NCBI GenBank assembly: GCA_951406725.2
Contig: OX597815.1
Span: forward strand, 128,836,001-128,900,000
Direction of reading: 5' to 3'
DNA: 64,000 nucleotides
Source of the DNA: Octopus vulgaris
Taxonomy: Eukaryota
Shown here: one piece after another, positions 2,151-64,000 of the stretch
Numbering within the stretch: position 1 is the stretch's first letter
Layout: the number at the start of each line of letters is the position of its first letter
Notes under the pieces: model-generated
Seen by the model: only the letters and a program-made list of their open reading frames with translations
Databases searched by the model: none
Told to the model about the DNA's origin: nothing
Position numbers and translations under genes: made by a program

Positions 2151-2769
2151 TTGCCAGACATCAGAGCTTTAATGTAAAGTCTTTTGTTCCCTTATTTCTG
2201 TTGAAGTGTATTTGCCATTGTTTCAATTAATTTTGAAAATATTAAAGAATTCATTAAAATAACTGTCATTATTAAATTTATTTAAATTAAGTATTTAGAA
2301 CATAAATTAGCATAAAATTTTGGAGGAAGATTTTTTTAAGTGAAGGTCACTTAAAAGCAGGGAGTTTGAATCATAGAACTAGGGCTGGTTTCAAAAAGGT
2401 TAAGAATGATTTTCAACATCTTAGACATAAAGCTGAAAATTTTGAAAGGAAGTGTGTAGCTGATTATATCAACCCCAATAGCCAACTGATATGGTTTATT
2501 CATCTTGCAATGATGAAAGACAAATGAACTATGAACTTACAACATAACTAAATATCAAAAAGTACTTTGGTACCCTCTGACTACTATTCTGAAATATACA
2601 ATACTTGAATAAGAATTAATTAGTAAATTAAGTTACAAAGTTATTCAATTTTTTTCACTGTATAAGAGAAGTTGAGAACATCAGTTTCGATAAATGGTGA
2701 CAGTCATGTTTTACAATTTACAACTGTATAAATTGCAAATTGTAAAACATAACTGTCACTACTACTACA

Positions 2770-2814
2770 TGAACCTGAAGATTGCATAGTTTAATGCATG
2801 AAAGTACTTGTTCA
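2770..2814 (+). ncRNA. Minimal type I hammerhead ribozyme motif (PLE type)
   Basis: tgaac-CTGAAGA-t-tgcat(agttta)atgca-t-GAAA-gtac-TT-gttca. Helix I is 5 bp, helix II is 5 bp after a U.U mismatch, and the helix III region aagtactt is palindromic. Confidence 0.7.
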
Positions 2815-3811
2815 ATCAGAATTGACATTTGATATTCTATCATTTCATTATATTATATTATATTATATTAATATAAGATTGTAAATAAAATGGAAAAATC
2901 AGACAAGTTTTGAATTTCTTTGAGTAATATATTCTTCTATACACAATCATACACACCCGTGTGTGTGTATATGTATATATATATATATATATATATATAT
3001 ATATATATGACATTTCCCAGACTTTTTCTGTTCCTTAAAATCTCAAGCACAAGGCATTGGTCAATCTGAGATTATAGTAGAAGACACTTGACCAAGATAC
3101 CATGTTGTAAGATCAAACCTGGAACCAAGTGATTGCTAAATAAACTAATTTAATCACATAGTCATTCTTGTACCTAGATTGCTTAGATTTCACATATGTT
3201 TTGTGACTACATTTTAAATTCAAACAATACTTGTGTAAATTTCTAAATGATTCATTTTTACTTTTTCACTATTTTAAACTTTTTTTTGTTTGAGAAAGTT
3301 GAACTTGTGTTTAGGATAATTTCAGTTTAATCAGCAATCAAGAAATTTCTTACTTAATTGATATTCTATTTTCAGCTAAATTAACAAGTATTCATGTTAT
3401 TTTTTCCTGTTAAGTGATGATAAATTGAGTTCTAAATCAAGATCACAATTAGTTTAAGCTCAATTAACCAATGACTTGTGAAATGTAAAACCTTTGCTGT
3501 AGTGGAATCATGTATATATATATATAGCTCTACCACCACAAAGATTGTGTGTTTGTGTGTGTTTGTGTGTGTATGTGTGTGTATGTGTGTGTGTGCATGC
3601 GAGTGTGTGTGTATATATATATATATTTGTATATACAGCTCTACCACCACTAATTTTTTCTTTTGTGTGTGTGTGCATGTATTTGTATATGCATGCATAT
3701 ATGTATGTATATGCATGTATGTGTGTATGTATGTATATATGTATGTATGTATGTATGTATGTATGTATGTGTGTGTATGTGTGTGTATGTATGTATGCAT
3801 GTATGTATGTA

Positions 3812-4142
3812 TGTATGTAGAGGAACTTGCTTTTGCAAATGCCTCTCATCATGAATAGTTTGGTTTAAGAACAATTTTTCAAACACAAAACATATCAGGT
3901 GACAAACAGTGTCTCAAGCAACACAGACGCAAGCCATCAACAACAGTTGGCAACAAGCTGGGAGTATCAATAGGAGAGTGTCAGTTGCTGTCTAGCTTTC
4001 ACTCAGTGCACATCTCTGCTCAAATTCACCAGGCCTTTTCATGAATTTCCTATGGGAAAAATAGTTTTGGTTTATGAACATTTCAGGCGATGAATGGTCT
4101 TGAAGAGCAAATTAAATCTATAAACTGAGGCTCCACTGTATA
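3812..4142. mobile_element. Degenerate pogo/Tigger-like non-autonomous DNA element
   Basis: The right end aaactgaggctccactg-TA reads cagtggagcctcagttt when reversed. Internal repeat aatagtttggttta.gaaca. The left TIR is poorly preserved. Confidence 0.35.
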
Positions 4143-60300: not shown

Positions 60301-63300
60301 AGGCCCTAAACAGAGTCAAGGGCACTGTCCTTCATTCTCTTATGATGCAATAAAAAAAATTTAATTATAGTCCAGGTGGGTTTTGTTACTTAGTCCCCAC
60401 CTCACTCCTCTTAGCTCTGATCCAACACATCAAAAGAATTCAAACCATAACCATTCCATCTTAATTTTAAGAATATTATATTTCAGACAGATGCATTCAA
60501 TATGTGTGCAGTTTAAAGGAGATTTTAATGCTATTTCTAGCAATTTGAAAAACCTCATAAATGTTTCCTAGGTTTATCATAATAGGATGTATTCAGCTTA
60601 TTTATCTGGAATCATTATTATCTGGCAGTGTGCTCCCAGAGAACCAAACCGGCAGCACAACTAATTCTCATTTGAACTATTGACACATCGTCTCACTTAA
60701 CTATGATTTCCAGTCATCGTCACTGGTATGCAAGGGATGGGTGCCACCAAACGGAACTTAACCCTTGACATACCACATGAAGACAAATCTTTTTATAGCA
60801 AACCAAAGATGTGTTAAAAGTTACAGAACACTTTATTTTCCAGTGAAATTAGTCACTAATTGTAAATGTAATGTATCCTTAGTGTGAGATTTATTCATAG
60901 TTTTGAGATTAAGTCTAACAGCCTGTAAATGAAATGTGTTGGTGATGCCAAAGAATGGATCTCTATTCTGTTCTTAAGGATGCACATAGGAAAGTGATGT
61001 GACTGTGGGACACTGTTTAAGCTTTTATTAAACTGGGAAGAATACTAAAGTTGGTAAAATAAAGACAGGCTGATGCTCAGATCTTCACACAGTATTTATT
61101 GTTACCAAGATAATACTAGATGCAATGAATGATCTGGTAGAACAAAAGGAAGACAAGAAAGGAAAAGTTCCGTTCATGGTGGTTATTTATGTGTTCACAG
61201 AGGAACAAAAATAAAGGGTGAGTGTATGAATGTTGAAGATTTAGCCAGTATCTGTATAGAAAGTTCTTTTGACAGTTTATCATTATGTTGCTTAGCTGCT
61301 AAGTCTCACTGTATATTTTTTTAAGAATAGCTTCTTTTTATAAACTCTATAACAAATCTTTTTGGACAGATCTATCGAGAACACATCACCCGATTAGCAA
61401 CATCTGACAGCTGTTTACATATAATTTTTATTGGCTAGATTTTTGATGATGTCATTACTCAGTCCATAAAATTCCAATTGTCTGCAGATAAATTCCTGAT
61501 CAGATGCAACAAAGTCCTAGGTTCAAATCAAAGTAGAGCTCTGCTACAGGTTTTTAGAATTAGTGTTCTTACAAGTTTCTAGATTCTTGGAATTTGGCAA
61601 TGTTGATTGCAGTAATTACTGTTGTTTTGATTGAAGACCATGATTGGGGCCTCCAAGAGAAATTTTACAGGACAAGAACAAGATTGCTTTTGAGACATTG
61701 ATGCAATTGGATTCTCTTAAAATTTGAGGAGGCTGTGAAGTAGGGACTTTTTTTTCTTTCTTTTTGAGGAAGAAGCCCATTGGATATTCATGGACCCCCT
61801 TTTTTTTTTTATTTCTCTGGAGTCTGGACTGACATACCTGCTGAATCCCCACCTCTTATAGGTGCAGCCCATGATCGGAGCTATCCATTTCAGAGAAATT
61901 AACAATCTTGTTATTTTAGGATCATTCAAGATATCTCATGGGGAAAGTATCCTTTCTACTTTTATTGTATAAGATTATGATTTAATGGAGATTTGGCTAC
62001 TATTTCTAGCACACAGACCAACTACATAATGGCTTCCTTGATGGTTCACAGTATAAATGGTTGAAGATACTGGGAGTGTAATAATTTCTTCAGGACTTAG
62101 GGAAGAAAAGCCATATTGAACAAGTCTATAAAGAAGCTTCTATGTGGTTGCTTGGATGTAAAGATGTCATTTTGATTGACAATTTGTGAATAGATTTATT
62201 GGGGCTATTGAGAAATGAATGAAAATATATTCATATAAATGTCTGTATTACACAATTGTTTGGATGTGTCCAGTGAGAGTTCATAAATTGAAAATGAGGA
62301 TGTTTGACATGAAAAAAAAATTGGAAGAGTGAAGAAGTACAGCTGGATGGTGACAGTGAGAAAGAAAGGAGTGATGACAGCATAAATAATTTCTGTGTGT
62401 GTGTGTGTATGTGTGTGTATGTGTGTGTGTATGTGTGTGTGTGTGTGAGAGAGAGAGAGAGAGAGAGAGGAGATGCAGGCAGTGAAATAGATGGAGAGTG
62501 AATTGATGAGAATTATACTGAGAAGGAAAGGAAAGGAAAGAAGTATTGGGTCATTGTTCACATAAGGTTTATAGTGACTCCACATCTAGTTTATACATAA
62601 ATATATACATACATGTATATACACACACACATGCACACACATGGAGTATACTGCTGATATAGTTTGTGAATTTCCCAACAAAATCTAAATACCATTCCCT
62701 TCCTTTCTTATTTCCTTGTTTTAATTACACTTTTACTAATATTATTCATCTCACAGCTGACAGAAAGGCTAAAGAACCTAACTAGATGCTTTTCCTAGAG
62801 ATGTATTGTGGTTTCACATTTCATAGCTCAAATCCTAATAAATGTCATTCCAGGATCTTTGAAATAGATACCACTTTTATACTGTAGGTATCATCTGGCT
62901 AAAATAATCTAAAGCACAAAATATAGGTTGGGGATCTAGTTTATGGTGACACCTTGAGTGTAAATCATGGTTTTCATTTTCTCTTCTGTCTTGTTATTTT
63001 TGTTCTTATACACCCTACCCACCCACCCACACACATGTGCATGTATACATATGGAGAGATGGATGGACAAATAGATGGATAGATTATATCATATCTAACT
63101 CCTGTGTATTAAACTGCCCTAAATGATAAGTGATATCCTATTATTAGATATAAAAAGTTATTATACAGGAATGTCAAATATATTTGTGTGTGTGTGTGTG
63201 TGTGTGTGCGCACACACATATATATATACAAAAATATGTGTGTATGTGTGTATATATGACTGTATGCATATATGTATATGTATGTATATGTATATATATA

Positions 63301-63643
63301 TGTGTGTGTGTGTATGTATATGTGTGTGTATATATATATGTGTGTGTGTGTGTGTGTATATATATGTATATATATGCATATATATGTATATATATATAAG
63401 TATATATATATGTATGTATGTATATATGTATATATACATTTGTATGTATGTATGTATGTATGTATGTCTATATATCTATATATAATATATATATATATAT
63501 ATATATATATATATATACACACACACATATATACATATATATATATATATATACTGTTGTGTCTGGGCAGAGTCATTTTCTTTATGAGCCTTATTATGTA
63601 ACACACTCACCGGTAAAATTTCCACTTTTTTCTTATTTTTATT

Positions 63644-63690
63644 GTCCTAAAATTTTCGTTGCGTCTTGCAACCTTTTCAATAGTCTTGAC
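63644..63690 (-). ncRNA. Putative atypical hammerhead motif (UUGAAAA core, U3-A8)
   Basis: Minus strand gtc-aaga-cta-TTGAAAA-g-gttgc(aagac)gcaac-GAAA-at-TT-tag-gac. Helix II is 5 bp, aaaatttt is palindromic, and helix I is cta/tag plus gtc/gac. Confidence 0.42.
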
Positions 63691-64000
63691 TCTGTTCATT
63701 ATTTACACTGCGTTCCTTTTTGTTTGTTTGTGCGCATGTGTGTGGGTCAGTGTGTGTGTGCCTATACATGCATGCATGTATATATGTATGTATGTTTGTG
63801 TTTGCATAGAAAATGCACAAACACAGACATGCAAGCACAGAAATATGCAGGATACGTACATACAGATGCACACACATATATACATATATATACATATGCA
63901 TACGCACACATATATACATACATATGCAAACACACACATACATACATACGTACATGCATGCATGTATAGGCACACGCACACACACACTGACCCACACACA

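What the first reader, a model, noticed from the sequence alone, without database searches (positions are those of the whole stretch)
2697..63700. Four hammerhead-bearing non-coding elements beside (TA)-rich repeats: a candidate cephalopod Penelope/retrozyme-type system
Seen: four short elements (about 2697-2870, 15842-16032, 56157-56350, 63553-63700) with largely unrelated flanks. Each has a minimal type I hammerhead fold with a palindromic or near-palindromic helix III, then 40-110 nt of sequence running into a TA-rich array. Three have an inverted-repeat junction next to the ribozyme, and none has an ORF. Established: Penelope-like retroelements carry minimal hammerheads with palindromic helix III in their pseudo-LTRs, these are thought to cleave as dimers, and PLEs often leave inverted 5'-truncated pLTRs. 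Inference: several non-autonomous ribozyme-carrying families target TA microsatellites in this genome at high density. PLE hammerheads are known in general, so any novelty lies in these families and variants.
Basis: partly seen in the sequence, partly recalled or inferred. Interest (0 to 1): 0.75.

Follow-up and report, generated by a model that had tools for sequence, protein, structure and literature searches.

The report
Ribozyme-tipped stubs of Penelope retrotransposons
The four elements are the broken-off tail ends of four protein-coding jumping genes of a known class (Penelope-like elements), three still carrying a predicted self-cutting RNA motif, and their back-to-back layout likely records copying of one RNA into both sides of a DNA cut.

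Summary
Real, but a known kind. Three of the four window copies fit a type I hammerhead; the copy at 15843-16035 has lost the start of its core at the inversion joint. All four have a second, inverted arm (the fourth just past the window end). None is a non-autonomous family or retrozyme: each is the 5'-truncated 3' pseudo-LTR of an autonomous Penelope-like element (PLE) with RT and C-terminal GIY-YIG. Two are Hydra-clade (717- and 727-aa intact frames), one Neptune-type (4,271-bp unit), one unplaced. Each family has 1,800-4,500 exact core-motif matches. Head-to-head insertions pair one tailed with one short end (21/21, 23/25, 10/10, 12/14), and tandem units within a young insertion are nearly identical, which fits one RNA copied from both strands of a break. 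Hydra PLEs with such hammerheads in (TA)n, including an octopus family, are published, and this scan reported the pattern many times on other DNA of this genome. Worth keeping: a U4C core in 100/100 listed copies of a young family, and a ~70-residue insertion at the telomerase IFD position in the fourth family's RT. Cleavage and circles are untested.

The parts
2731..2959 (+). E1: tailed arm, 3' pLTR stub of a Neptune-type PLE
   Evidence: 88% over 256 nt to the pLTR of EN-bearing L084; end positions
2770..2814 (+). E1 hammerhead: 5-bp helix I, U4 core, 5-bp helix II inside a U.U pair, 6-nt palindromic helix III, U17 (A17 in most copies)
2696..2723 (-). E1: 28-nt stub of the inverted arm; rest missing in this copy, no TA on this side
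   Evidence: complete inverted arms in other copies
2968..3008 (.). (TA)n target next to the E1 tailed end
15843..15994 (-). E2: tailed arm, 3' pLTR stub of a Hydra-clade PLE
   Evidence: 92% to ORF-linked L052, 85% to young L164
15942..15992 (-). E2 hammerhead remnant: core positions 7-9, long helix II, helix III, helix I 3' strand; positions 3-6 and helix I 5' strand lost
15994..16035 (+). E2: short-ended inverted arm
15807..15842 (.). (TA)n left of E2 (right side 16032-16072)
56157..56269 (-). E3: tailed arm, starting at the cleavage-site end of helix III
   Evidence: 97% to L216
56273..56348 (+). E3: short-ended arm with whole hammerhead; 3' pLTR stub of a second Hydra-clade PLE
   Evidence: 100% over 92 nt to the pLTR of L216, which has a 727-aa frame
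56278..56315 (+). E3 hammerhead: 4-bp helix I (extendable), U4 core, 2-bp helix II inside an A.A pair, 9-nt near-palindromic helix III, A17
63554..63805 (-). E4: short-ended arm, 3' pLTR stub of an unplaced C-terminal-EN PLE
   Evidence: 95% to the pLTR of ORF-bearing L143, 84% to L173
63644..63683 (-). E4 minimal hammerhead: 3-bp helix I, U3-A8 core, bulged G, 5-bp helix II, 4-nt palindromic helix III, U17
   Evidence: covariation with sister family
63805..64000 (+). E4: tailed arm, continuing past the window end to equivalent position 64241 with a second hammerhead at ~64055
   Evidence: L121

Best explanation
The four elements are 5'-truncated, head-to-head 3' ends of four autonomous Penelope-like retrotransposon families, and each insertion was likely made when the element's protein cut both strands of AT-rich DNA and copied one RNA into both cut ends from two fixed start sites. 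SHOWN: continuity of each stub with an RT + GIY-YIG frame; two 3' ends per family, 27-70 nt apart; one of each per insertion; arms and tandem units of a young insertion nearly identical; TA on both sides for E2 and E3. FROM THE LITERATURE: a purified PLE protein nicks and extends both strands at AT-rich DNA, starts RT at two internal sites that bound the tail, and is predicted to be a dimer (PMC11167929). INFERRED: one subunit uses each start site; the two cDNAs are joined at their growing ends; in these four cases both stopped within 30-440 nt; multi-unit arms come from going round a circular or terminally redundant RNA. The hammerheads would cleave only as helix-III dimers, weakly or with protein help; solo stubs like these are likely inert passengers.
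For: Linkage: E1, hammerhead 399-1017 nt downstream in 29 of 30 EN-bearing loci, RVT_1 and GIY-YIG Pfam matches; E2, pLTR match in 20 of 20 ORF loci and 10 of 10 full-length stretches; E3, Hydra frame in 9 of 10 fetched stretches; E4, 12 of 20 ORF loci, fold closest to telomerase. End rule: E3 21 of 21 pairs, E2 23 of 25, young E1 10 of 10, older E1 7 of 8, E4 12 of 14. One template: E1 units within an insertion differ by 0 and 1 of 4,271 bases, between insertions by 6-12; E2 array units 0-2 of ~2,580, between insertions 3-34; arm versus arm within/between insertions 0.18/0.75% (E1), 0.95/3.68% (E3), 1.22/1.73% (E2). Selection on the ribozyme: E2 and E3 pLTRs share only the 12-mer spanning G12 to U16.1 though their proteins are 45% identical, and the same helix III pattern stands in coral, Hydra and sea-cucumber families; E4 and its sister family swap U3-A8 for C3-G8 and change two helix II pairs on both sides.
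Against: No cleavage, circle or transcript end was observed. Two E2 units in L172 differ by 8 bases, and the E2 within/between gap is small. Assembly polishing could make neighbouring repeats look identical. Pairs were picked from the first listed matches on one contig, and E3 stretches were picked as opposite-facing pairs. Joints of short copies cluster near the ribozyme, so short copies spreading on their own are not excluded. E1's window copy lacks most of its inverted arm. The in vitro paper saw no difference in start site between strands (PMC11167929), and hammerhead mutants did not affect insertion there.
Confidence: 0.85

Rival explanations
1. The short elements are non-autonomous retrozyme- or SINE-like families with their own fixed unit, moved in trans by PLE proteins.
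For: Most best-scoring copies of each window query are short; early E3 samples all stopped ~17 nt upstream of the core; retrozymes derive from pLTRs (bioRxiv 10.64898/2026.07.22.740005, part 1 read).
Against: An unbiased pattern search gave E3 copies running on into a 1-kb 3' UTR and a 727-aa frame; inversion joints differ from copy to copy; tandem periods seen are whole-element lengths (2.58, 3.36 and 4.27 kb), not short units.
Confidence: 0.08
2. The inverted arm arises by self-priming fold-back of a single cDNA (or on an antisense template), as proposed for rotifer Penelope elements, not by priming from both DNA strands.
For: It also predicts identical arms; palindromic joints are common (PMC3846280, passages; perfect-mirror joints among E3 copies).
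Against: A copy-back of a tailed first strand cannot reach further 5' than its template, yet the short-ended arm does so in L211, L212, L214, L217, L293, L294 and window E3; a copy-back of a short first strand cannot gain the tail. Read from earlier outputs, not counted over all pairs.
Confidence: 0.15
3. The element structure is as described, but these hammerheads no longer cleave: they are kept as protein-binding or start-site structures.
For: U4C in 100 of 100 listed E2 cores and 63 of 100 E1 cores; U4C lowers activity in vitro (PMC3088659, passage); U17 sites, free 10.1-11.1 pair, A9C in the E4 sister; mutants did not affect insertion (PMC11167929).
Against: C3-G8/U3-A8 covariation and retention of G5, A6, G12-A14 across unalignable pLTRs are the signature of the catalytic fold; dimer MFE for natural E2 C4 and E3 copies is the open-core dimer.
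Confidence: 0.25

Closest known systems
Hydra clade of C-terminal EN+ PLEs, incl. Hydra-1_Obim, Hydra-2_Amil, Penelope-3_HM (PMC8557442; passages, sections 6, 11, 12, supplement parts 1, 2, 53, 54)
   Same: E2 and E3 parents: RWK, DKT, CxCX5C linker, CxxC and CxH, no CCHH, (TA)n target, hammerhead near the 3' end with the same odd-length near-palindromic helix III and A17/U17.
   Different: All 26 Hydra rows in that table have U4; E2 has C4. E3 unit is 3.36 kb (paper: generally under 3 kb). The Hydra-1_Obim hammerhead row differs from both, so these are other families.
Neptune clade PLEs (Neptune-1_Ac, DrerioNep1 rows in Fig. S1/S2 of PMC8557442)
   Same: E1 parent: GxKF, DKG, 62-residue A-B' spacing, long CX4CxxC linker, CCHH, C-terminal GIY-YIG.
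   Different: A separate 454-codon upstream frame overlaps the RT frame in the -1 phase; the young subfamily carries U4C.
Nematis clade / canonical C-terminal EN+ PLEs
   Same: E4 parent: short CX4CxxC linker like the Nematis rows, CCHH-type EN, minimal hammerhead with U3-A8 and bulged base as in Schistosoma Cercyon (PMC4209133, parts 1-2 of 4).
   Different: DKS instead of DKG and a ~70-residue insertion between RT motifs A and B', absent from the 8 canonical C-terminal-EN rows of Fig. S1.
Poseidon_Ac of the green anole (PMC11167929, parts 1-2 of 4)
   Same: Two RT start sites bounding a tail, AT-rich target, both strands cut, pLTR hammerhead.
   Different: Here the start sites lie before the start codon, and genomic copies pair them one to one.
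Animal non-LTR retrozymes (bioRxiv 10.64898/2026.07.22.740005, part 1 of 5 and passages)
   Same: Type I hammerhead, pLTR-like sequence, non-coding in these copies.
   Different: Retrozymes are short tandem non-coding units with a hammerhead in each; these are ends of coding elements.

Membership tests
EN+ Penelope-like elements | RT with C-terminal GIY-YIG upstream of the pLTR | tested here: met
   All four parents; Pfam confirms E1 (RVT_1 E 2.6e-6, GIY-YIG 3.2e-5), is weak for E4 and blank for E2/E3
EN+ Penelope-like elements | Partial tandems, inverted 5'-truncated copy, tail at one end | tested here: met
EN+ Penelope-like elements | Telomerase-related RT | tested here: met
   E4 parent model (pLDDT 91.6): top Foldseek hits are telomerases, E 8e-8, TM 0.36; others not folded; sequence search of PDB blank for E1, E3
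Hydra clade (E2, E3) | RWK, DKT, CxCX5C, CxxC/CxH, no CCHH | tested here: met
   against section 11 of PMC8557442
Hydra clade (E2, E3) | Insertion into (TA)n; canonical hammerhead | tested here: met
   TA at arm ends; hammerhead canonical in E3, U4C variant in E2
Hydra / Neptune / Nematis | Placement in the RT tree with reference elements | not testable with these tools
   No reference PLE proteins were available as usable sequences
Neptune clade (E1) | GxKF, DKG, long CX2-5CxxC linker, CCHH, no IFD | tested here: met
   compared by eye with Fig. S1/S2 text
Neptune or Nematis (E4) | No insertion between RT motifs A and B'; DKG | tested here: not met
   Spacing 133 against 61-62 in the other parents; DKS
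Naiad (E4) | N-terminal GIY-YIG, CxC, DKA, no canonical hammerhead | tested here: not met
   EN is C-terminal; 0 of 98 parsed homologues have an N-terminal YIG motif
Non-LTR retrozymes | Non-coding tandem unit with a hammerhead in each copy | tested here: not met
   Units are whole coding elements
Type I hammerhead ribozyme | Core and three helices | tested here: met
   E1, E3, E4 window copies; not the E2 copy; Rfam blank
Type I hammerhead ribozyme | Self-cleavage 3' of position 17 | not testable with these tools
   Needs an assay or raw RNA reads

The most novel reading that the evidence does not exclude
The fourth stub belongs to an undescribed, widespread PLE lineage that joins a C-terminal endonuclease and a working hammerhead to an RT with a telomerase-IFD-like insertion longer than any reported in PLEs; and autonomous PLEs of three clades write each insertion from a single circular RNA with an asymmetric dimer, with U4C cores selected repeatedly because they keep the catalytic strand from pairing with helix III.
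Probability: 0.3. Interest if true: 0.65.

Novelty: new member of a known kind. Interest (0 to 1): 0.33.

Why it matters
As filed, it is an ordinary footprint of a known retroelement class. The by-products are useful: young families with identical intact frames (E2, E3, E1) are ready substrates for the open question of how PLE inversions, tails and tandems form, and the one-tailed, one-short rule with identical units gives a sharp prediction for the existing in vitro system. A U4C core carried by a currently expanding family tests whether PLE hammerheads must cleave. The E4 lineage may add a branch bearing on how the telomerase fingers insertion arose.

Tried and rejected
Rfam scan: no hammerhead hit. 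Idea that E3 has a fixed 5' end: refuted; it came from ranking by likeness to the inverted window copy. RT frame beside an E2 copy in L060/L180: a separate Neptune-type insertion beyond a TA tract, rejected as E2's parent. RNA: no RNA holder listed (19 holders, none on record as RNA); four runs laid were contigs only and cannot show ends, strand or circles. End tally for older E1 copies (18 long+short, 16 short+short) discarded: the loose anchor matched inside the ORF; one search's automatic E1 end lengths discarded for running through TA, redone. Core tallies include unrelated matches (15 in E3, 12 in E4) and were not used for counts. The E4 pattern left position 9, not 8, open, so it does not test C3-G8. 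The folding argument for U4C is weak: C4 raises the open-core probability in E2/E3 (0.01-0.03 to 0.17-0.69 as monomers) but also in E1 and E4, and young E3 spreads with U4. Motif search of the PMC8557442 supplement for the E4 lineage was blank but long cells are cut, so it proves little. A full count of which arm reaches further 5' was not obtained. Paper searches found no report of U4C in PLE hammerheads or of an IFD-bearing C-terminal-EN lineage; Repbase, Dfam and subscription papers were not searchable, and supplements of PMC4209133, PMC13282606 and the bioRxiv preprint were not seen.
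Full report
Observation. The window lies at G000:C2:128,836,001-128,900,000 in a 2.8-Gb genome that looks like an octopus; the best named homologue of one parent protein is labelled Octopus vulgaris by its source. I call the elements E1-E4 in window order. Rfam finds no hammerhead. 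My descriptor finds complete type I folds in E1, E3 and E4: 3 hits against 0.13 in 100 shuffles (relaxed after seeing the motifs; the first scan gave 2 against 0.03 strict, 0.82 loose). E2's window copy is cut inside the core by its inversion joint; its family has the whole motif. E1 runs to 2959, past an internal ATTAT run. E4 has a second arm that ends 241 nt beyond the window.

Copy number. Exact core-spanning patterns match 1,815 (E1), 3,823 (E2), 4,477 (E3) and 1,795 (E4) places, with 0 for each reversed control. These count arms, not insertions, and miss decayed copies.

Parents. E2: a 320-aa frame next to one copy retrieved 125 scored places without stops, most 97% identical to the query and many in 717-aa open frames; 20 of 20 of those loci and 10 of 10 full-length stretches carry the E2 pLTR. 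E3: copies taken by pattern run on through a ~1.05-kb 3' UTR to a 727-aa frame (9 of 10 stretches hold part or all of it); the window arm is 100% identical over 92 nt to that pLTR. Both proteins have RWK, DKT, CxCX5C, CxxC and CxH and lack CCHH, the Hydra-clade signature (PMC8557442 section 11). E1: 29 of 30 loci found with the endonuclease region have the hammerhead 399-1017 nt downstream. The young subfamily is a 4,271-bp unit with a 454-codon frame overlapping, in the -1 phase, a 775-codon frame with GxKF, DKG, RT, long Cys linker, GIY-YIG and CCHH: Neptune-type by motif. E4: 12 of 20 ORF loci carry the pLTR; the family is older, most matches holding stops. Its RT folds with high confidence and is closest to telomerases.

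Insertion anatomy. Each family has a short and a tailed 3' end: 27 nt apart in E1, 47 nt in young E2 (a second short site gives 67), 70 in E3, 57 in E4. Head-to-head insertions carry one of each: E3 21 of 21 pairs (22 stretches, one showed a single arm), E2 23 of 25 (26 stretches; exceptions are one interrupted arm and one nested pair), young E1 10 of 10, older E1 7 of 8, E4 12 of 14, one exception being a mis-anchored match (8 of 10 by the method). [quoted passage not shown] 2 legend). Tandem arms are seamless whole-element repeats. E1 units within one insertion differ by 0 and 1 base of 4,271 and by 6-12 between insertions. Four E2 units across both arms of one insertion differ by 0-2 bases and by 3-34 between insertions, with one exception of 8 (L172). 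Opposite arms are closer within than between insertions in all three families tested. E2, E3 and E1 ends abut (TA)n; E4 short ends mostly abut AT-rich DNA (7 of 43 in TA).

Mechanism. A purified anole PLE cuts and extends both strands of AT-rich DNA, starts at two internal RNA sites that bound the tail, and needs protein for hammerhead cleavage, which is dispensable for insertion in vitro (PMC11167929, parts 1-2). I infer that a dimer holds one RNA and primes one start site from each strand; the cDNAs are joined head to head; early stops leave stubs like these four, long runs round a circular or terminally redundant RNA leave arrays. A circle was proposed by Cervera and de la Pena (PMC4209133, parts 1-2). 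The fold-back rival (PMC3846280, passages) also gives identical arms but not cases where the short-ended arm reaches further 5' (L211, L212, L214, L217, L293, L294, window E3; read; not counted over all pairs). No RNA evidence was obtained.

The ribozymes. E2 and E3 pLTRs share only the 12-mer from G12 through helix III, a helix III pattern also listed for coral, Hydra and sea-cucumber families with A17 or U17. E4 has the U3-A8 pair and bulged base described for Schistosoma; its sister family has C3-G8 and double changes in helix II. Position 4 is C in 100 of 100 listed E2 matches, 63 of 100 E1, 23 of 100 E3 and 1 of 100 E4 (E1, E3, E4 counted by hand from the first 100 listed). All 26 Hydra rows of the published table have U4. 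U4C is known from a viroid, where it lowers activity in vitro but suffices in vivo (PMC3088659, passage). Folding suggests U4 lets the core pair with helix III in E2/E3, but the effect is not specific.

E4 lineage. Motifs A and B' lie 133 residues apart against 61-62 in the other parents; 97 of 98 parsed homologues (of 120 listed, 182 found) keep 120-139, 80 have a C-terminal Cys linker, none an N-terminal YIG. PMC8557442 states that canonical C-terminal-EN PLEs lack this insertion and gives 20-40 residues for Naiad/Chlamys. I could not place the lineage against reference elements; it may already sit in Repbase.

Prior knowledge. PLE hammerheads, inverted truncated pLTRs, (TA)n targeting, an octopus Hydra family and recently active octopus PLEs (PMC13282606, passages) are published. 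This scan's notes on other DNA of this genome report the same stubs, the end rule and the one-circle idea many times; they are unchecked and not support. No note matched E2 or E4 by sequence, and 'IFD' was met in none.

Verdict. Observation partly confirmed, interpretation partly supported; new members of a known kind; interest 0.33.

Noticed in passing
L173:3517-5511 (+); L177-L179; P0001-P0120: [quoted passage not shown]
   Followed up: partly
L291 (4,271-bp unit): Neptune-type E1 parent has a 454-codon upstream frame with no Pfam match overlapping the RT frame in the -1 phase across a run of seven T; a programmed frameshift is possible.
   Followed up: partly
L239-L240 (G000:C1:57,208,400-57,223,200): One two-armed E2 insertion of about 14 kb with six hammerheads and near-identical 2.58-kb units.
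   Followed up: yes
L043, L062, L135, L096, L074, L058 and others: Further hammerhead families turn up in flanks, several also with C at core position 4.
   Followed up: no
window 3-1508 (-): 502-codon acidic, low-complexity open frame without Pfam match, probably a large host exon; the elements may lie in or near a host gene.
   Followed up: no
window 36139-36220 (-): 5' fragment of U4 snRNA (63 bits, above the gathering score) between trinucleotide repeats; likely a retroposed pseudogene.
   Followed up: no
L003-L009, L011: Eight near-identical E3 copies share the same flanks, interrupted by an RTE-like LINE, mostly on small contigs; a duplicated larger unit.
   Followed up: no
L180:2040-3812 (+): A further Neptune-type family (591-codon frame) inserted in TA next to an E2 copy.
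   Followed up: no
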